From the IMG/VR virus record IMGVR_UViG_2541047933_000012: 38,540 nucleotides of DNA; one strand, written 5' to 3'. Of this stretch, positions 225-33,696 are shown in pieces (within the stretch, counting starts at the first letter, position 1; each line of letters starts with the position of its first letter). The DNA is from a virus (lineage: Duplodnaviria > Heunggongvirae > Uroviricota > Caudoviricetes). The position numbers were made by a program, and so were the translations under genes. The notes under the pieces were generated by a model that saw only the letters and a program-made list of their open reading frames with translations, ran no database searches and was not told where the DNA came from.

Positions 225-2174
225 TTAATCGTGTTTTGGCCATACTTTCAATGCAATTTCCCCCAACTTTTTACCCCGCTCCAGGATTTCATCCTCATCC
301 CATTTATCCTTAACTATAAGTGGAATGTTCAGTCGTAGATTGGTGTGGACGATGAGAGCATCACGTTTTTTCAGAAATACAGCATTCTGAACAGAACGGT
401 TTACGCTAAGGTTAAGCAAAGTTAGATTTCCCAAAGTAGATATCGCTTGTTGCCGTTTCCTTACCAGTAGCTGTTCAGGGGTAAGATCGGTTCCAGACAG
501 AACAATTTGGTTCAATACCGTAGCATCTGAATTTGTCACCATACGACCATTTTCGAGAGGCCAACAGGAATACCAACTTTGAGGCATAAGATGATCGATA
601 TCGAGATTAGAAAGATTTGGAACATCAGGCTTTTCTGTCTTTACTTGGCGACAAAGTTCTCTTTCAAGTTCCGTTAACATTGAGCGCATTTTCGGTGCGT
701 CGAGCCTGCCAGGATAAAGTGGAGCATTGATGCAAGCGTTGAGAAATTCTGAGTCACCAGGCCAACGTGAGGCTTCGCCATTTAAGTTATTGAGGATATT
801 ACGTAACTCAACACTGGAAATTTCCGTTTTAGCCAAGTGCCGCAATACATTCATAAATACATTGTTGTAATTCTTTGGCGTCAGGCCACATACGGCTCTT
901 CGTACTACGTAGGAGACAAGATCATTATACATGGCTGCTTTCTCATCATCAGCGATGTTAGCTATCGAAATGAACAAAGCAAGCGGATAAAGTGTCGTCA
1001 CATCATAGTCTGCGATGCGATATCCAAAGTGTGAGATGGGGGTTGTGCCAAAACCATCAACCAATTCTTTATATTGTGATGCATATTGTTTGAGGCGCTT
1101 TACTTGCAGATCTGCTCGTTGTGAAGACAAGTCCTTACTTACATAATCACGATACTCATTGTAAAGGCGAGACAGATCAATTTCACGTTGCCTTTCTGAT
1201 TGCAATGTCGCATGTACTAGCCACTCCATGCGTGGTTTATTAATACGTCCACGGCGTTGTTTTTCCGACCAGTATTTATCTTCAAAGCTCTTCCACTCAT
1301 TTTCATATAATTCAATAGCATTAATATTTTCATGCTCAGCGCACATAAAGATATAGTTGCGAATAAGATCCGTAGCATGAAGTTCCGCCCCTCGCCCATT
1401 TAATGTTTCAAAAATTATTTGGGCATCATCTTCAGCTTCGAGAAATATGCTTACCAGTTTCAGATCTGTTAAGACAGCCTCAATTAGAGCTACAGCATTT
1501 TCTTGTGGTGAGTGGTTTTCTATTTTAATCCATTTTATAAAGGCTTCAGTAAAAAAACATAATGCTTCTAGTGATGGCGGGTGATTAAAATGCTTACGCA
1601 ACGTACCATGCTGCGTGAAACTATCAGAGAATACGTCCCGGAGATCGTCAATATTTTCAACATTAAAACTTTGAATAAAATGAGTTTGATCCCGAAAAGT
1701 TGGCCACAGTTTGAAGCGTTCTACTTCTTTATTTCGCATTGTGTCTTCGTTTGAGTTTTTCAGGCAAGGCGAAATGAGAGCCTCTAAGCTGGAAAGATCC
1801 GTAGCACGTAATGCTAATCGGATGGATGCCAGAACATATTGAAGAGTGGTCAATCGTTGCTGACCATCAATAATATGTATGGAATCTACACCTAATAATC
1901 CTTTTTTTGATTGAGGTTCCAGTACAACCGCACCAAGGAAATGGGGAGTTGGTTTTGTACCCGAGAGCCGGGATTGTACTTTCTCTAGGATATCCTCCAG
2001 TAGAGCTGACCACTGGTCTTGCTGAGTCCATACATAGGCACGTTGATAGAATGGAACACAGTATTGTCGGCGGTCTTGAAAAAGTTGTTGGACAGTTAGC
2101 GTCTCGGATTTCATGGTATACCTGTAAGCGACATTGTACAAAAGTGAGGAGTTAATCTGATTTAGAACAATCAT
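225..2174 (-). CDS. DUF262/DUF1524 two-domain protein, GmrSD-like type IV (modification-dependent) restriction endonuclease candidate
   Basis: 649-aa ORF with N-terminal ParB-like DGQQR motif (IIDGQQRLTTL) and C-terminal HNH-like DUF1524 motifs (DIDHLMPQ, GNLTLLN). True start may be the internal Met at 2114. Confidence 0.6.
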   Translation of the reverse strand: MIVLNQINSSLLYNVAYRYTMKSETLTVQQLFQDRRQYCVPFYQRAYVWTQQDQWSALLEDILEKVQSRLSGTKPTPHFLGAVVLEPQSKKGLLGVDSIHIIDGQQRLTTLQYVLASIRLALRATDLSSLEALISPCLKNSNEDTMRNKEVERFKLWPTFRDQTHFIQSFNVENIDDLRDVFSDSFTQHGTLRKHFNHPPSLEALCFFTEAFIKWIKIENHSPQENAVALIEAVLTDLKLVSIFLEAEDDAQIIFETLNGRGAELHATDLIRNYIFMCAEHENINAIELYENEWKSFEDKYWSEKQRRGRINKPRMEWLVHATLQSERQREIDLSRLYNEYRDYVSKDLSSQRADLQVKRLKQYASQYKELVDGFGTTPISHFGYRIADYDVTTLYPLALFISIANIADDEKAAMYNDLVSYVVRRAVCGLTPKNYNNVFMNVLRHLAKTEISSVELRNILNNLNGEASRWPGDSEFLNACINAPLYPGRLDAPKMRSMLTELERELCRQVKTEKPDVPNLSNLDIDHLMPQSWYSCWPLENGRMVTNSDATVLNQIVLSGTDLTPEQLLVRKRQQAISTLGNLTLLNLSVNRSVQNAVFLKKRDALIVHTNLRLNIPLIVKDKWDEDEILERGKKLGEIALKVWPKHD

Positions 2175-2538
2175 TTTATTTTGCTATGATACAACGTATT
2201 TGTTACCGATTAAGTAAAAAACGCGTCTGAACGCTGACGTTTTAGGGCTTTACTGGTTATTCTTTCTTATCTCTTCATCATCCCATCGGCATCCTGTCGA
2301 GGTTGTTGACTTGTTGTTATTTATTTTGTCTAGGCGCTGTTTAATTATTATTGATAGAATTGATGGTGAGAGGTGATTGAAACCGTAGGCACGTCGTTTG
2401 CAAGGACGTGCTACGACTGGCTGGTGAACTTCCGATAGTGCGAGTATTGAATGATTTCCTACGTGCTAACTAGTGAACAAACAACTCTTCAGTAGACTCT
2501 CAGGTATCATTCAGAGTTTCCTGAACGAAAGTTTTAGC

Positions 2539-3114: not shown

Positions 3115-4537
<1,423 letters not shown>

Positions 4538-30593: not shown

Positions 30594-31153
30594 GCGTTAG
30601 TTTCTCCACAGTCACGACACGCCACGGCGCCCGGAGCTGCACACTCGCGGGCGTCACTACTTTCTGAAACGCAAAAGATTTTGTAGACCAGTGCTGCATG
30701 CTCCTGCAGCTTCGAAATTGAGAGGTACAGCTCATCGTTAATTGCTGTCTTCTCATGCGGTTCCACTACACCGTCTTCAATTGCTGAACGAATCTGTTTT
30801 GAATAACTGCCGATCTGTTCAATGACCTCCAGCAGGCGTTGGTTGATATCGGCGTTGTCCACATCCTCGACGTCAGGAAGAGACACAAAGACGCCATTTG
30901 CAGACTGCGCCACAGCATCAGCAATGAAGTGAGTGCCACCAGCACGCTGTAAAACCATTGCCCATCCCAGCGGGAAAATCTGATCGCCATCTGCACGAAG
31001 GCGGTTGAATAAAGCGTTTTCTGTTACATCGAGCCAGTCAGCCGCTTCAGCGTAACCACCCGGCAACGCCGCGATCGTTTTTCTGACAGCTTTCACGTAC
31101 CACTCAGGCTGTTTTTCTATTTTCCAGTGATGCTTACCCACGATTAGCCTCAT
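30590..31153 (-). CDS. Hypothetical early protein at the cII position
   Basis: 187 aa immediately downstream of the cro-like gene; function assigned by position only. Confidence 0.3.
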
Positions 31154-31184
31154 CGTTCTGTGGTTAAAAATTGAAAGTGTTCTG

Positions 31185-31385
31185 CTAATCTTTCGGATAG
31201 ATATCCGGTCTTAAGTCAGATTTCGTAATTGCACCTGACGTGCATTGCTCAAGTTTTTTAGCCAGCACAAAACTGGCTTTTTTATAGCCATTGAAAACCA
31301 GCCGTAAGTAGCCAGGTGTTGAGCCAACTTTTCCGGCCAACTCGCCCTGCTGTTCTTTGGTTAAAGAGTCCCAATACGCTTTCAT
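31185..31385 (-). CDS. cro: Cro-like HTH repressor
   Basis: 66 aa from the ATG at 31385 with GGAGG upstream; divergent from cI across the operator region. Confidence 0.5.
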   Translation of the reverse strand: MKAYWDSLTKEQQGELAGKVGSTPGYLRLVFNGYKKASFVLAKKLEQCTSGAITKSDLRPDIYPKD

Positions 31386-31391
31386 ACAATG

Positions 31392-31458
31392 TGTACCTCC
31401 GGTGTACATATTACATGATTGAAATGAACCTTCAAGATACTTGTACCTTAACGGTACA
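31392..31458. promoter_or_regulatory. OR region: two 17-bp palindromic operators with overlapping PR and candidate PRM
   Basis: TGTAC-ctccggt-GTACA (31392-31408) and TGTAC-cttaacg-GTACA (31442-31458). Minus-strand PR reads TTGAAG-N16-TAATAT; plus-strand candidate PRM reads TTGTAC-N16-TTTAAT, ending 8 bp before the cI ATG, which has no ribosome-binding site. Confidence 0.5.
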
Positions 31459-31475
31459 AGGGTTTTAATTTCGTT

Positions 31476-32150
31476 ATGAAAACAATCCATGACATCCGGC
31501 GGTCTAACGCCAGAAAACTGAGAGATGGTGTTGGCGGGAATTCTTCCTTTGCCACTATGATTGATCGCGAGCCAACCCAGACCAGCAGGTTTATGGGAGA
31601 TGGTGCTACTAAAAATATCGGTGACAGCATGGCACGACACATCGAAAAATGTTTCGACCTGCCTGTCGGATGGCTCGATCAAGAACACCAGACAACGAAC
31701 ATCACAAAAAAACCTGATGTTTCAATCACTAATAAACAAATCACATTAGTCCCTGTCATATCATGGGTACAGGCCGGAGCATGGAAAGAAGTTGGATATT
31801 CTGAGGTTGATTTGAGCACAGCAGAAACGTATCCCTGCCCTGTACCCTGTGGGGAAATGACTTATATCTTGCGGGTGATAGGTGATTCAATGATTGATGA
31901 GTACCGCCCGGGAGACATGATTTTTGTCGATCCTGAAGTACCTGCCTGCCACGGTGACGACGTTATTGCATTGATGCACGATACAGGTGAAACCACCTTC
32001 AAAAGGTTGATAGAAGATGGGACACAGCGTTATCTCAAAGCGTTAAACCCAAACTGGCCTGAGCCTTACATTAAGATCAACGGTAATTGCTCTATAATTG
32101 GTACTGTGATTTTCTCAGGAAAACCAAGAAGATACAAAATCAAAGCCTAA
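31476..32150 (+). CDS. cI: CI-like repressor with S24 (LexA-type) autopeptidase domain
   Basis: 224 aa with N-terminal HTH and C-terminal S24 hallmarks (VIGDSM Ser, downstream Lys). Confidence 0.8.
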   Translation: MKTIHDIRRSNARKLRDGVGGNSSFATMIDREPTQTSRFMGDGATKNIGDSMARHIEKCFDLPVGWLDQEHQTTNITKKPDVSITNKQITLVPVISWVQAGAWKEVGYSEVDLSTAETYPCPVPCGEMTYILRVIGDSMIDEYRPGDMIFVDPEVPACHGDDVIALMHDTGETTFKRLIEDGTQRYLKALNPNWPEPYIKINGNCSIIGTVIFSGKPRRYKIKA

Positions 32151-32162
32151 TCAATGTTTATG

Positions 32163-32186
32163 AACCTGCTTCGGCAGGTTTTTTTA
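32163..32186 (+). terminator. Intrinsic terminator after cI
   Basis: AACCTGC-ttcg-GCAGGTT followed by TTTTT. Confidence 0.65.
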
Positions 32187-32188
32187 TA

Positions 32189-32221
32189 CTTGACAATGTA
32201 CCTTTGAGATACATAATGTAC
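32189..32221 (+). promoter_or_regulatory. Operator-overlapped consensus promoter (PL-like or sRNA promoter)
   Basis: TTGACA (32190-32195), 16-bp spacer, CATAAT (32212-32217); a third operator-like site TGTAC-ctttgag-ATACA (32197-32213) lies between them. Confidence 0.4.
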
Positions 32222-32301
32222 CCAAGAGAAACAACAAACAGGCAGGACGCCCACGAAGTAGCCGCCTGGGGCATATGAAGTCCAGGATGATTCGTTAGCA
32301 A

Positions 32302-32324
32302 CAAAAAAGCGCCCTATAGGACGC
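32302..32324 (-). terminator. Intrinsic terminator downstream of the DUF1311-like gene
   Basis: Minus-strand GCGTCC-TATA-GGGCGC stem (one G-U pair) followed by TTTTTT. Confidence 0.5.
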
Positions 32325-32352
32325 TTCGCTCTTTAACAATCTGGATGACTTA

Positions 32353-32865
32353 TTACTCAGATTTGAACTTTGGTTCTGGCAAAAGAGGAGGAGTTGAGTC
32401 CTCGAATCGTAGCCAGTGCTCCCAGATATCGTGGGATTGTAATTCCAGAAGACCAATTTGACGTGATGCAACTGCAGTGCCAGCTATAGTTCCTCCTGCA
32501 TAATCAACCTGGACGGACTTTGACGCTTTCTCAATTAATTCTGTCCAAGCTTCACTTTCCGCGTTAAAAGAAGCAGTTAATTCCTGCAGACGCTGTGGAT
32601 CATCCTTGTTGTCTTGTTTCAAACGATTCAGGGCGGCCACCGAATACTTATTCTTAACCCAACTAACCTGAGCTAACTGAACTCTCTGACAAGCGTCCAT
32701 ATCAGTAGTTGTTTCCTGAGGCATATCAAAGCAGGAAATAAAAAAAGTCTCAACACCATCATTTAGACTACTGCTCGGCTGGTTCAAAGCATCAGAAGCA
32801 TTGGATGCTATCGGTATTATCAGTGCTACCGACAGAATCAAACGTTTAACATAAATCGCTCCCAT
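32353..32865 (-). CDS. Secreted DUF1311-like (LprI-type) protein
   Basis: 170 aa with N-terminal signal-peptide-like segment; convergent with cI and has its own terminator. Confidence 0.4.
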   Translation of the reverse strand: MGAIYVKRLILSVALIIPIASNASDALNQPSSSLNDGVETFFISCFDMPQETTTDMDACQRVQLAQVSWVKNKYSVAALNRLKQDNKDDPQRLQELTASFNAESEAWTELIEKASKSVQVDYAGGTIAGTAVASRQIGLLELQSHDIWEHWLRFEDSTPPLLPEPKFKSE

Positions 32866-33196
32866 TTAATTATCCCCTCTAAGAACAGAGTCATCCAGAT
32901 TAGCCGAATCCTTGTTGTTGGGGAATAACCAGGCCCACCTCGCCTGATGTGGCTAAAAGCAGGCACATAACAGCTAAGTATTTTCAACCAGAGAGAATCC
33001 TTAGCGTTGTGGTGAATGCGGCTCAGCGCACGCGGGTTAAGGTTGAGGCTGACAGTCGACCTTCTGTGGATACCCACCCGCCTGGTGTGCAACCTTCGCC
33101 AGGCACCGGGAGGCACCCGGCACCACAACTTTATGCTGTGTGTAGTCCTGGCGGTACCAGCTTGTACCCTTGCTTCCGGCTGGTACCGCTCTTTTT

Positions 33197-33285
33197 ACAA
33201 AACAGAGAAGAGCATCACCGGACGACGGGCTCATAACCCAATCCACCCGGGCGGCTGCCACCGCAGGTGTTCTTCTCTGTTTTGT
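33197..33285 (+). ncRNA. Long perfect inverted repeat in the early-left leader (structured RNA candidate)
   Basis: ACAAAACAGAGAAGA (33197-33211) pairs perfectly with TCTTCTCTGTTTTGT (33271-33285) around a 59-nt GC-rich loop; the stem extends to about 20 bp with G-U pairs; no U-tract follows. Confidence 0.35.
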
Positions 33286-33333
33286 GGAGAAACCAACCGA
33301 CCTTGCAGGGTCGATATGATGAGGAGCAGCAAA

Positions 33334-33696
33334 ATGGCTAGCGAACGCAGTACCAACGTGCAGGAATTTATCGGGGAGCTGGACGGCGGCGTATTTGAAA
33401 CCAAAATCGGCGCAGTTCTCAGTGAAGTCGCTTCCGGTGTGATGAACACGAAAACCAAAGGTAAGGTCTCGCTCAACCTGGAAATCGAACCGTTTGATGA
33501 GAACCGTGTGAAAATAAAACACAAACTCTCATATGTTCGTCCGACTAACCGCGGGAAAATTTCCGAAGAAGACACCACCGAAACGCCGATGTATGTCAAT
33601 CGCGGTGGTCGCCTGACTATTCTGCAGGAAGACCAGGGACAATTACTGACTCTTGCCGGTGAACCTGACGGAAAACTCCGCGCAGCAGGTCATTAA
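33334..33696 (+). CDS. YfdP-like hypothetical early protein
   Basis: 120 aa from the ATG at 33334 with GAGGAG upstream; the annotated 226-aa ORF is a 5-prime overextension. Confidence 0.45.
   Translation: MASERSTNVQEFIGELDGGVFETKIGAVLSEVASGVMNTKTKGKVSLNLEIEPFDENRVKIKHKLSYVRPTNRGKISEEDTTETPMYVNRGGRLTILQEDQGQLLTLAGEPDGKLRAAGH

What the first reader, a model, noticed from the sequence alone, without database searches (positions are those of the whole stretch)
31386..32221. Genetic switch with 17-bp TGTAC-N7-GTACA operators and a third operator downstream of cI
Two near-perfect palindromic operators overlap divergent PR and PRM candidates. The cI start has no ribosome-binding site and sits about 8 bp after the PRM -10, suggesting a leaderless cI mRNA as in lambda. 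The same half-site recurs downstream of the cI terminator, embedded in a near-consensus promoter, which may be PL or an sRNA promoter. This predicts the repressor specificity.
Basis: partly seen in the sequence, partly recalled or inferred. Interest (0 to 1): 0.5.

Follow-up and report, generated by a model that had tools for sequence, protein, structure and literature searches.

The report
Known e14/SfV-type prophage immunity switch

Summary
TGTAC-N7-GTACA occurs perfectly twice in 38.5 kb (0.01 expected). Both copies lie in the 90-bp cro–cI gap (31392-31408, 31442-31458). A 1-mismatch copy (32197-32213) lies inside a TTGACA-16-CATAAT promoter just after the cI terminator.

I add a second left operator (32217-32233) and a probable weak middle right operator (31425-31441). 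Relatives at 69-99% identity keep the half-sites while the spacers vary.

The region is 100% identical to an E. coli UTI89 prophage and nearly identical to K-12 e14 (ymfK/ymfT) and phage SfV. The SfV GenBank record already marks 31391-31459 as "putative operator region". Published dRNA-seq puts the e14 ymfK start site on the A of the AUG (leader 0).

The 32190 promoter is PL, the early-left promoter. About 10 nt after its start lies a ~64-nt three-helix RNA motif (32233-32296). It has strong covariation and occurs in at least 120 viral contigs and 98 species genomes, nearly all Enterobacterales. It almost always sits downstream of a repressor gene. It is absent from Rfam and undetectably related to HK022 put. 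I propose, untested, that it is a put-like cis-acting antiterminator.

The parts
31185..31385 (-). cro (ymfT/croE-like, 66 aa)
   Evidence: ORF. RefSeq annotates it as ymfT, a YdaS-family HTH protein, in UTI89. Pfam gives weak YdaS_toxin and HTH_3 matches. PDB gives weak matches to phage Cro chains 8co2 and 8c7k.
31392..31408 (.). Right operator 1 (site A), TGTACCTCCGGTGTACA. It covers the last base of the PR -10, the predicted PR start and the cro Shine-Dalgarno sequence (GGAGG, minus strand 31400-31396).
   Evidence: Perfect match. The left half is invariant and the right half is GTACA or ATACA in relatives, while the central bases vary.
31408..31435 (-). Candidate PR: -35 TTGAAG (31435-31430), 16-nt spacer, -10 TAATAT (31413-31408). 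Predicted start about 31400-31403.
   Evidence: Read from the sequence. It matches the consensus 8/12, below the scan threshold. TTG of the -35 and the -10 are kept in relatives. The start site is not mapped.
31425..31441 (.). Candidate weak middle operator, TGAACCTTCAAGATACT. It overlaps the PR -35 and is centred at -43 from the cI start site.
   Evidence: 9/12 match, which is not significant by itself. However, TGAACC is invariant, the 5-nt spacer varies and the right half is G(A/G)(T/C)ACT in all relatives, including yong2 and EPP-1, where the neighbouring 16 nt have diverged. This is an inference.
31442..31458 (.). Right operator 3 (site B), TGTACCTTAACGGTACA. It lies between the -35 and -10 of PRM.
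   Evidence: Perfect 12/12 palindrome. The left half-site is invariant and the right is GGTACA in all variants but yong2 (GGTACT), with five different spacers among the same-immunity variants and two more in yong2/EPP-1. The SfV GenBank record's 'putative operator region' corresponds to window 31391-31459.
31441..31476 (+). PRM: -35 TTGTAC (31441-31446), 17-nt spacer, -10 TTTAAT (31464-31469). The start site is A31476, the first base of the cI AUG, so the mRNA is leaderless.
   Evidence: Sequence. The K-12 e14 ymfK start site has leader length 0 on identical sequence. The '-10 plus 6-7 nt plus ATG' spacing is kept while the intervening bases vary.
31476..32150 (+). cI repressor (ymfK/cohE-like, 224 aa), an SOS-cleavable LexA-type repressor
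   Evidence: Pfam Peptidase_S24 over residues 93-212, E=1.5e-26. The C-terminal domain resembles the lambda cI C-terminal domain, E=2e-9; the N-terminal 76 residues weakly match the Rep repressor 5d50, E=2e-3. The Ala100-Gly101, Ser138 (GDSM) and Lys176 motifs were read from the sequence by analogy with LexA and lambda cI.
32162..32188 (+). Intrinsic terminator of the cI transcript
   Evidence: 8-bp stem with a UUCG loop and a T7 run. Annotated as a terminator in the SfV and Ayreon records. The stem changes but still pairs in yong2 and EPP-1.
32190..32217 (+). PL (early-left promoter): TTGACA-16-CATAAT. Predicted start about 32224-32225.
   Evidence: 11/12 match. Annotated as a promoter in phage Ayreon MF807953. 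Identical hexamers in yong2 and EPP-1. The start site is not mapped.
32197..32213 (.). Left operator 1, TGTACCTTTGAGATACA, in the PL spacer
   Evidence: 1 mismatch. It is a perfect site (TGTACCCATGCGGTACA) in EPP-1.
32217..32233 (.). Left operator 2, TGTACCCAAGAGAAACA, covering the PL start; its centre is 20 bp from left operator 1
   Evidence: 10/12 match. At the same position EPP-1 has TGTACTTATAAGATACA, with 1 mismatch.
32233..32296 (+). Conserved structured RNA at the 5' end of the PL transcript. P1: 32233-32238 with 32291-32296. P2: 32241-32243 with 32249-32251. P3: 32265-32269 with 32282-32286. Candidate cis-acting antiterminator.
   Evidence: Found by BLAST in phages with unrelated immunity regions. 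At least 120 viral contigs and 98 species genomes carry the core. Covariation: 95.7% of cells paired against 21-43% for shifted controls, and 10 of 14 pairs show compensatory changes. RNAalifold predicts the same fold. The covariance model scores 89.5 bits and finds a single copy in the window. No Rfam family matches.
32306..32327 (.). Hairpin. On the minus strand it is a strong intrinsic terminator for the 170-aa gene at 32353-32865. On the plus strand it is a weak terminator in the path of PL.
   Evidence: minus strand, 9 pairs plus TTTTTTG. On the plus strand the tail is CGCUCUUU (sequence).
32327..32339 (+). boxA-like CGCTCTTTAACAA, directly after the hairpin
   Evidence: Read from the sequence. 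The 12-mer GCTCTTTAACAA is present downstream of the RNA motif in 19 of 136 loci and never upstream. It appears to travel with the hairpin and the minus-strand gene. Its function is untested.

Best explanation
This is the immunity region of an e14/SfV-type lambdoid prophage.

Repressor and operators. A LexA-like CI repressor (N-terminal DNA-binding domain plus S24 self-cleaving domain) and a small Cro protein are made from divergent promoters. Both are expected to recognise 17-bp operators of the form TGTACC-N5-GGTACA.

Right side:
- Site A (31392-31408) sits on the PR start and the cro ribosome-binding site, so a bound protein shuts off cro and the early-right genes.
- A weaker site (31425-31441) overlaps the PR -35. 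It lies at -43 from the cI start, where lambda CI activates PRM.
- Site B (31442-31458) fills the PRM -35/spacer, so occupancy there turns cI transcription down. That would be autoregulation by CI and shut-off by Cro.
- cI mRNA starts on the A of its AUG and is translated without a leader.

Left side. After the cI terminator, two operators 20 bp apart (32197-32213 and 32217-32233) cover the spacer and start of a near-consensus PL.

Induction. SOS-induced self-cleavage of CI should free PR and PL.

PL transcript. It begins about 10 nt upstream of a conserved three-helix RNA (32233-32296). I propose this RNA acts in cis on the transcribing RNA polymerase, as HK022 put does. That would carry transcription through the hairpin at 32306-32327 and about 1.5 kb that is antisense or poorly translated, to reach yfdP, yfdQ, yfdR and int.

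Shown: the sites, their statistics, their conservation, the RNA fold, the genomic contexts, and (published, on identical sequence) the leaderless start site.
Inferred: which protein binds where, repression versus activation, SOS cleavage, and the function of the RNA.
For: Identity:
- The region is 100% identical to UTI89 and many other E. coli (ymfK, ymfT, ymfL).
- It is 98-99% identical to SfV and SfIV and differs from K-12 e14 by 1 base in the cro-cI gap.

Operators:
- Statistics.
- Half-sites are kept and spacers vary in 11 variants and in yong2 and EPP-1 at 69-72% identity, with the same spacings.
- Earlier annotation by others: the SfV 'putative operator region' and the Ayreon promoter.

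Leaderless cI: PMC4681348 text and Table S3, leader 0.

Proteins: S24 domain, CII-like neighbour, Cro-like HTH; lambda cI C-terminal domain homology.

PL identity: the same repressor-terminator-promoter-early-left layout in SfII, ZF40, ST64B, AH07, YeP1, SPN3UB, pAEv1818 and phiNP; mEp237 and ST846 have other genes upstream of the element, with early-left genes (kil, exonuclease) downstream.

RNA motif:
- Covariation and independent fold prediction.
- In 53 of 108 distinct upstream regions a promoter scoring at least 9/12 ends 13-24 nt before P1, against 9% of control windows with such a promoter.
- The upstream same-strand ORF carries an S24 repressor motif in 83 of 200 loci, and most of the rest that were listed look like short HTH repressors.
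- No conserved protein gene follows the motif.
- SfII, SfV and SfIV have no N gene (PMC3851460).
- HK022 putL also lies just downstream of PL and suppresses both intrinsic and Rho-dependent terminators (PMC9378689).
Against: - No binding or footprint data for this repressor were found in any readable source.
- PR and PRM are weak consensus matches (8/12 each). The PR and PL start sites are unmapped.
- The best palindrome (site B) sits on PRM, which fits autorepression better than lambda-style positive autoregulation.
- The middle site is only 9/12 and abuts site B (centres 17 bp apart), an unusual geometry.
- The covariance model of the RNA finds nothing in HK022. The phages carrying put and those carrying this motif do not overlap. 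The architecture, a closed three-way junction, differs from the two open stem-loops of put.
- No strong plus-strand intrinsic terminator was found in the left operon.
- Wobble pairs do not settle which strand folds (13 G-U cells against 25 A-C/C-A cells).
- Ayreon, cdtI and Stx2c phages share the switch but lack the motif, so the motif is not needed for immunity.
Confidence: 0.8

Rival explanations
1. In this particular prophage the 32190 promoter mainly makes a short RNA of about 100 nt, from about 32224 to the hairpin at 32306-32327. That RNA works as a trans-acting small RNA.
For: The hairpin lies 10 nt after the motif. The next gene is on the opposite strand. Prophage small RNAs near cI have been reported; svsR of prophage NC-SV is one (PMC12803456).
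Against: On the plus strand the hairpin is followed by CGCUCUUU, a poor U tract, and the scan calls a terminator only on the minus strand. In SfV, SfII, ZF40, YeP1 and others the same motif runs straight into an ORF with no terminator, so as a family it is a 5' leader. PL is repressed in a lysogen, so such an RNA would exist only after induction. No conserved single-stranded seed region is evident.
Confidence: 0.12
2. The conserved PL-leader RNA is a ligand- or protein-binding regulatory leader, either a riboswitch-like aptamer or a nut-like site for a phage or host protein. It is not a self-sufficient put-like antiterminator.
For: A closed three-way junction with highly conserved junction and loop bases is typical of aptamers (the invariance of the 22-nt core is by construction of the search pattern). 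The motif sits at the very 5' end of an operon. A consensus boxA follows it in this window, hinting at Nus factor involvement.
Against: No conserved partner protein is encoded next to it. No Rfam riboswitch matches. No conserved expression platform follows it, because the downstream sequences differ completely between phages. boxA is present in only 19 of 136 loci and travels with an inserted gene.
Confidence: 0.25
3. The palindromes are RNA hairpins or terminators, not protein operators. Site B with its flanks is called terminator-like on the plus strand.
For: One search lists 31440-31460 (CTTGTACC-TTAAC-GGTACAAG followed by GGTTTTAATT) as terminator-like.
Against: The same hexamer recurs at four to five separate sites, including imperfect ones that cannot form good hairpins (OL1, OL2). 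The stems are invariant, not covarying, across relatives. The sites coincide with promoter elements on both sides of cI.
Confidence: 0.03

Closest known systems
Immunity region of cryptic prophage e14 of E. coli K-12 (ymfK/cohE, ymfT/croE, ymfL) and of Shigella phages SfV and SfIV
   Same: Essentially the same DNA. It is 98-100% identical over cro, the operators, cI, the terminator and PL. The SfV record already marks the operator region. e14 ymfK has a mapped leaderless start site.
   Different: Site A is a perfect palindrome here and in e14, but has ATACA as its right half in SfV and Ayreon. The genes after the PL leader differ: ymfJ in e14, orf33 in SfV, and here a hairpin plus a reverse-oriented 170-aa gene.
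Phage lambda OR/OL-PRM/PR/PL switch
   Same: Divergent cI and cro genes. 17-bp two-fold symmetric operators overlap PR and PRM, and a second operator cluster sits at PL. cI mRNA is leaderless. CI has an S24 C-terminal domain homologous to that of lambda cI.
   Different: The operator sequence differs. There are two strong sites plus one weak site at OR, with centre spacings of 33 and 17 bp, against three sites at 23-24 bp (lambda spacings from general knowledge, not checked here). Two sites were found at OL, not three. The strongest palindrome covers PRM. PL follows the cI terminator directly, with no rexAB between. No N or nut is present. The Cro here is of the YdaS/HTH type.
HK022 put RNAs (putL, putR) and the put-like RNAs of HK639, HK75 and phiEt88
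   Same: The motif has the same position (the first ~70-80 nt of the PL transcript) in lambdoid phages that lack N, and a similar size. It is strongly conserved across phages that are otherwise mosaic.
   Different: There is no detectable sequence or covariance-model similarity. The sets of phages do not overlap. The fold is a closed three-helix junction, not two side-by-side stem-loops. There is a single copy and no right-operon copy. The function is untested.
HK022 operators
   Same: They use the same pentamers, TGTAC and GTAC(A/T) (sequence).
   Different: The pentamers are separated by 5 nt in HK022 (TGTAC-TATTG-GTACT) against 7 nt here, so the specificities should differ.

Membership tests
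Lambdoid CI/Cro immunity switch | Divergently transcribed repressor and cro genes separated by a short regulatory gap | tested here: met
   cro is at 31185-31385 (minus strand) and cI at 31476-32150 (plus strand), with a 90-bp gap.
Lambdoid CI/Cro immunity switch | Repressor with a LexA/S24 self-cleaving C-terminal domain | tested here: met
   Pfam Peptidase_S24, E=1.5e-26. Lambda cI C-terminal domain, E=2e-9. Cleavage itself was not tested.
Lambdoid CI/Cro immunity switch | Repeated two-fold symmetric operators overlapping PR and PRM | tested here: met
   Two perfect sites against 0.01 expected. The half-sites are conserved in relatives down to 69% identity. A third, weak site is only inferred.
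Lambdoid CI/Cro immunity switch | Second operator cluster on the early-left promoter | tested here: met
   OL1 (32197-32213) and OL2 (32217-32233) lie within and after TTGACA-16-CATAAT. They are conserved in yong2 and EPP-1.
Lambdoid CI/Cro immunity switch | Repressor and Cro physically bind these operators and set up bistability | not testable with these tools
   No binding data were found. The Allison 2002 and Mehta 2004 papers are not held.
Leaderless cI mRNA (lambda PRM type) | Transcription start on, or within a few nt of, the A of the start codon | tested here: met
   Published dRNA-seq for e14 ymfK gives leader 0. The sequence from the -10 to the ATG is identical to the window. It was not measured in this strain.
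HK022-type put antiterminator RNA | Lies at the start of the early-left transcript of a lambdoid phage without N | tested here: met
HK022-type put antiterminator RNA | Sequence and structure similarity to putL or putR (two stem-loops) | tested here: not met
   Model R1 finds no match in HK022. The BLAST families are disjoint. The covariation-supported fold is a three-helix junction.
HK022-type put antiterminator RNA | Factor-independent suppression of termination through the RNA polymerase beta-prime zinc-binding domain | not testable with these tools
   This needs in vitro transcription or rpoC mutants.
Nus-factor boxA antitermination (rrn / lambda nut) | boxA consensus on the transcribed strand of the leader | tested here: inconclusive
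   CGCTCTTTAACAA lies at 32327-32339 on the plus strand. It occurs in only 19 of 136 motif-bearing loci and moves with an inserted minus-strand gene. The similarity to rrn boxA is recalled from memory, not tested.
Any Rfam family (for the PL-leader RNA) | Covariance-model match | tested here: not met
   There was no hit at gathering threshold in the window. No hit lay on the plus-strand motif itself at E<=10 over 32100-32450; the only overlapping match is a chance-level minus-strand one (RFPL3-AS1_1, 17 bits against a gathering score of 70). There was none at E<=0.01 in nine related loci.

The most novel reading that the evidence does not exclude
The ~64-nt three-helix RNA at the 5' end of the PL transcript (32233-32296) is a second, structurally distinct class of cis-acting processive antiterminator RNA. 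It would be analogous to HK022 put but unrelated to it, and would be used by a large group of N-less temperate phages of Enterobacterales, including e14 of E. coli K-12, SfII/SfIV/SfV, ST64B and ZF40.
Probability: 0.35. Interest if true: 0.7.

Novelty: already known. Interest (0 to 1): 0.35.

Why it matters
The switch itself adds little. It confirms that an immunity type present in about 40% of complete E. coli genomes (2167 of 5426) uses TGTACC-N5-GGTACA operators and a leaderless repressor mRNA. That is useful for predicting superinfection immunity groups and for engineering e14/SfV-type prophages.

The more useful outcome is the PL-leader RNA. It is strongly supported by covariation, is widespread, is present even in K-12, is absent from Rfam, and did not appear in any paper I could search. 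If it proves to be an antiterminator, it would be only the second phage RNA class known to reprogram RNA polymerase without a protein. It would also explain how N-less lambdoid phages express their early-left genes.

Tried and rejected
- Rfam (gathering and permissive thresholds) on the window and on nine related loci gave nothing for the PL leader.
- Homology to HK022 put: the covariance model found no match and the BLAST families were disjoint. The shared short strings (CGAAC-GGC, GGAUGA) fall in non-equivalent structural positions, so I treat them as coincidence.
- Second copy of the RNA motif downstream of PR, like putR: none in the window.
- N-like arginine-rich protein after the motif: the first ORFs differ between phages and none looks N-like.
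- Small ORF in the motif: the AUG is ACG in about half of the sequences, so it is non-coding.
- Hammerhead or k-turn reading of the GAUGA/CGAAG junctions: the junction lengths do not fit. This was checked by eye only.
- Single-sequence folding of the PL leader was uninformative (z=0.14).
- svsR small RNA of prophage NC-SV (PMC12803456): it is described as lying at the 3' end of a cI gene, but its sequence is not in the held text or supplements. I could not decide whether it overlaps this locus.
- The Allison 2002 (SfV), Mehta 2004 (e14) and King 2011 (put-like RNAs) papers are not held. What they say about these operators and about put-like RNAs could not be checked.
- One literature search was wasted because 'cohE' and 'croE' matched unrelated words.
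Full report
**What is there**

The 90-bp gap between a minus-strand cro-like gene (31185-31385) and a plus-strand cI-like gene (31476-32150) holds two perfect copies of TGTAC-N7-GTACA, at 31392-31408 and 31442-31458. With no mismatch allowed these are the only two copies in the 38.5-kb window, against 0.01 expected from shuffles. With one mismatch allowed there are four copies against 0.74 expected, and one of them is 32197-32213. With two mismatches the count is at chance level, so only the best sites and their clustering mean anything.

I also scored twelve positions (TGTACC-N5-GGTACA). The five sites with at least 10/12 all fall between 31392 and 32233, against 1.3 expected in the whole window.

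The promoter scan finds TTGACA-16-CATAAT at 32190-32217 (11/12). It also finds a strong intrinsic terminator at 32162-32181, right after the cI stop codon.

**What it is**

The stretch 31100-32400 is 100% identical to a prophage of E. coli UTI89 and many other strains, where RefSeq names the genes ymfK (LexA family), ymfT and ymfL. A match is present in 2167 of 5426 complete E. coli genomes. The stretch is 98-99% identical to Shigella phages SfV and SfIV, and about 95% identical to phages Ayreon, 2H10, cdtI and a set of Stx2c phages. In the cro-cI gap it differs from the cryptic prophage e14 of K-12 by a single base.

Protein-family searches agree with a lambdoid immunity region:
- cI has a Peptidase_S24 domain over residues 93-212, E=1.5e-26.
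- The neighbour beyond cro is a CII-type regulator (Phage_CP76), and cro gives weak YdaS/HTH_3 matches.
- The cI C-terminal domain aligns with solved lambda cI C-terminal domains at E about 2e-9.
- The N-terminal 76 residues match only weakly (Rep, 5d50).

**Are the sites operators?**

Eleven natural variants of the same immunity region show the pattern expected of protein-binding sites (the window, K-12, SfV, Ayreon and seven IMG/VR contigs).
- The pentamers are invariant apart from G/A at the first base of site A's right half.
- The central bases change: CTCCGGT, CTCCAGT, CTCCTGT at site A; CTTAACG, CTTATCG, CCTATCG, CTTTACG, CATAGAG at site B.

Hafnia phage yong2 and Edwardsiella phage EPP-1 are only 72% and 69% identical over the region. 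They have the same sites at the same positions:
- Sites A and B are 50 bp apart.
- Two sites 20 bp apart lie inside an identical TTGACA...CATAAT promoter.
- In EPP-1 the two left sites are TGTACCCATGCGGTACA and TGTACTTATAAGATACA. This shows that the weaker 32217-32233 site of the window is a real second left operator.

Between A and B, the hexamer TGAACC (31425-31430) is invariant in every variant, including yong2 and EPP-1. A variable 5 nt and then G(A/G)(T/C)ACT follow it, while the 16 nt to its left have diverged. I read 31425-31441 as a third, weak operator. Its own match (9/12) is not significant, so this is an inference.

**Geometry and mechanism**

These promoter assignments are read from the sequence and are inferred, except where stated.

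- PR, minus strand: -35 TTGAAG (31435-31430), 16-nt spacer, -10 TAATAT (31413-31408), start near 31401. Site A then covers the start and the cro Shine-Dalgarno sequence. That also explains why the CCTCC part of its spacer is conserved.
- PRM, plus strand: -35 TTGTAC (31441-31446), 17-nt spacer, -10 TTTAAT (31464-31469), then six bases and the ATG.
- Both promoters match the consensus only 8/12 and were not reported by the scan.

Site B fills the PRM -35/spacer, so a protein bound there should lower cI transcription. The weak middle site is centred at -43 from the cI start, the position from which lambda CI activates PRM, and it overlaps the PR -35. The logic therefore looks lambda-like, but the spacings are unusual (centres 33 and 17 bp apart). 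The strongest palindrome sits on PRM, which fits negative autoregulation at least as well.

OL1 lies in the PL spacer and OL2 on the PL start.

**Leaderless cI**

This prediction is already confirmed experimentally for identical sequence. Romero et al. 2014 found only five leaderless mRNAs in E. coli K-12 by differential RNA-seq. One of them is ymfK of e14. Their Table S3 gives its start site at the first base of the start codon, leader 0.

Relatives keep the spacing '-10, then 6-7 nt, then ATG', while the intervening bases vary and offer no clear Shine-Dalgarno sequence (only EPP-1 has an AGGA, 3 nt from its ATG).

**Prior knowledge**

- The SfV GenBank record (U82619) carries a 'putative operator region' that maps to window 31391-31459, plus the cI terminator.
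- The Ayreon record annotates the promoter at window 32189-32216.
- I found no binding experiment.
- The SfV and e14 genome papers are not held.

**What the 32190 promoter transcribes**

BLAST of the region showed that about 65 nt just after the promoter (32230-32300) are conserved at 80-98% in many temperate phages whose repressors and operators are unrelated. These include SfII, phiNP, ST64B, SPN3UB, SEN34, mEp237, mEp460, Klebsiella, Yersinia, Pantoea and Pectobacterium phages, and one Aeromonas phage. The stretch is never annotated.

In eight of the ten annotated examples the element lies 100-200 bp after the repressor gene, on the same strand, behind a TTGACA-type promoter with that phage's own operators and ahead of the early-left genes; in mEp237 and ST846 other genes lie directly upstream, but the promoter and early-left genes follow the same pattern.

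An exact-core scan gave at least 120 viral contigs and 98 species-level genomes. Nearly all of the genomes are Enterobacterales, with many in Xenorhabdus.

An alignment of 106 distinct versions supports a three-helix fold:
- P1 closes the element, P2 is a small invariant hairpin, and P3 is a variable hairpin.
- 95.7% of cells are paired, against 21-43% when partners are shifted.
- 10 of 14 pairs show compensatory changes.
- The covariation score is 0.58 against 0.15 in shuffles.
- RNAalifold finds the same helices unaided.

The invariance of the 22-nt core is partly by construction, because I searched with it.

Further properties of the element:
- In 53 of 108 distinct upstream regions a promoter scoring at least 9/12 ends 13-24 nt before P1, against 9% of control windows with such a promoter. 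The RNA therefore starts only a few bases before the fold.
- The upstream same-strand ORF carries an S24 motif in 83 of 200 loci, and most of the other listed ORFs are short HTH repressor-like proteins.
- The genes downstream differ, and none looks like an N protein.
- The AUG inside the element is ACG in half of the sequences, so it is non-coding.
- No Rfam family matches.
- A full-text search for the core sequence found no paper.

**Relation to put**

SfII, SfV and SfIV have no N gene (PMC3851460). HK022 lacks N and uses put RNAs. putL lies just downstream of PL, is about 70 nt long, and suppresses intrinsic and Rho-dependent terminators by binding the RNA polymerase beta-prime zinc-binding domain (PMC9378689).

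The position and size of the new element match that description. The element is nevertheless not a detectable member of the put family:
- The covariance model built here scores 89.5 bits on the window and nothing in HK022.
- The put family found by BLAST (HK022, O276, HK75, HK639, phiEt88 and others, some annotated as putL) shares no phage with the new set.
- The fold is a closed junction, not two open stem-loops.

I therefore say that it may work like put (probability about 0.35). I do not file it as put.

In this window such an activity would be useful. PL must cross the hairpin at 32306-32327, the antisense of a 170-aa gene, and about 1.5 kb that is antisense or poorly translated before it reaches yfdP, yfdQ, yfdR and the integrase gene.

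Caveats:
- No strong plus-strand terminator is predicted in the left operon.
- Wobble-pair counts do not settle the strand.
- Ayreon, cdtI and Stx2c phages share the switch but lack the element.
- I could not read King et al. 2011 to exclude that they listed it.

**Verdict**

The finding is an already-known e14/SfV-type immunity switch, so its interest is low. The added operators (OL2 and the candidate middle site) are refinements. The conserved PL-leader RNA is the one item worth following up.

Noticed in passing
window 32233-32296 (+); loci L007-L016 at about 1490-1570; L017-L136: A conserved three-helix RNA motif lies at the 5' end of the early-left (PL) transcript. It is shared by many temperate phages of Enterobacterales with unrelated immunity regions. 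Covariation is strong, no Rfam family matches, and no searchable paper contains the core sequence.
   Followed up: yes
window 32306-32339: A hairpin is directly followed on the plus strand by CGCTCTTTAACAA. As far as I recall, this matches the rrn-type boxA consensus in the rrn order (hairpin, then boxA). The 12-mer is found after the RNA motif in 19 of 136 loci, at varying distances, apparently moving together with the hairpin and a reverse-oriented gene. It might protect PL transcripts from Rho while they cross the antisense gene. This is untested.
   Followed up: partly
window 32976-33198 (+): There is a near-threshold Rfam match to sRNA family STnc100 (45.4 bits against a gathering score of 47; E=2e-8). 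The region is annotated in UTI89 as a frameshifted hypothetical gene. Weaker matches occur at the equivalent place in SfII, ST64B and K-12 e14. The apparent 226-aa ORF at 33016-33696 may be partly spurious.
   Followed up: partly
window 31841-31857: An operator-like 10/12 match, TGTACCCTGTGGGGAAA, lies inside the cI coding region, at the codons for PVPCGE. It may be chance or may be held by coding constraint. Conservation independent of the protein was not assessed.
   Followed up: no
window 32230 and 32296: Homology with SfII starts at the 5' edge of the RNA motif, and homology with SfV ends at its 3' edge. The conserved motif appears to serve as a recombination joint between immunity modules and early-left modules in these mosaic phages.
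   Followed up: partly
L006 (HK022) 2330-2400 (-) and 3445-3465 (+): HK022 operators use the same TGTAC/GTAC pentamers, but 5 nt apart and not 7 (for example TGTACTATTGGTACT). A similar site precedes putR.
   Followed up: no
L137 (Hafnia phage yong2) 917 and 1033; L138 (Edwardsiella phage EPP-1) 730 and 796: The deposited cI start codons look wrong. yong2 cI is annotated from an internal Met and so lacks its DNA-binding domain. EPP-1 cI is extended upstream across the operators. By alignment, both should start at MKT... like the window's cI.
   Followed up: partly
L137 about 1775-1850 (+): In yong2 the PL leader has no RNA motif, but a sequence that looks like a tRNA gene (GTGGTGTAGCTCAGTTGGTAGAGC...GGTTCAAGTCCAGCCACCACA) follows PL. 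It was not run through the tRNA finder.
   Followed up: no
window 32353-32865 (-): A 170-aa protein with a signal-peptide-like N-terminus and a weak LprI (lysozyme inhibitor) match (E=0.006) sits in reverse orientation inside the early-left operon. It has its own terminator, which is a moron-like arrangement.
   Followed up: no
window 3' end of cI, about 32075-32150 (uncertain): A 2026 paper (PMC12803456) reports a small RNA, svsR, 'at the 3' end of the cI gene' of prophage NC-SV of E. coli NC101. It was found through 58% identity to e14 C0293. Its sequence is not in the held text, so I could not tell whether NC-SV shares this cI or whether svsR overlaps this locus.
   Followed up: partly
L013 (Salmonella phage SPN3UB) 2263-2350 (-): There is a clear Rfam isrB match (99 bits) in the early-left region of SPN3UB, antisense between two early genes.
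   Followed up: no
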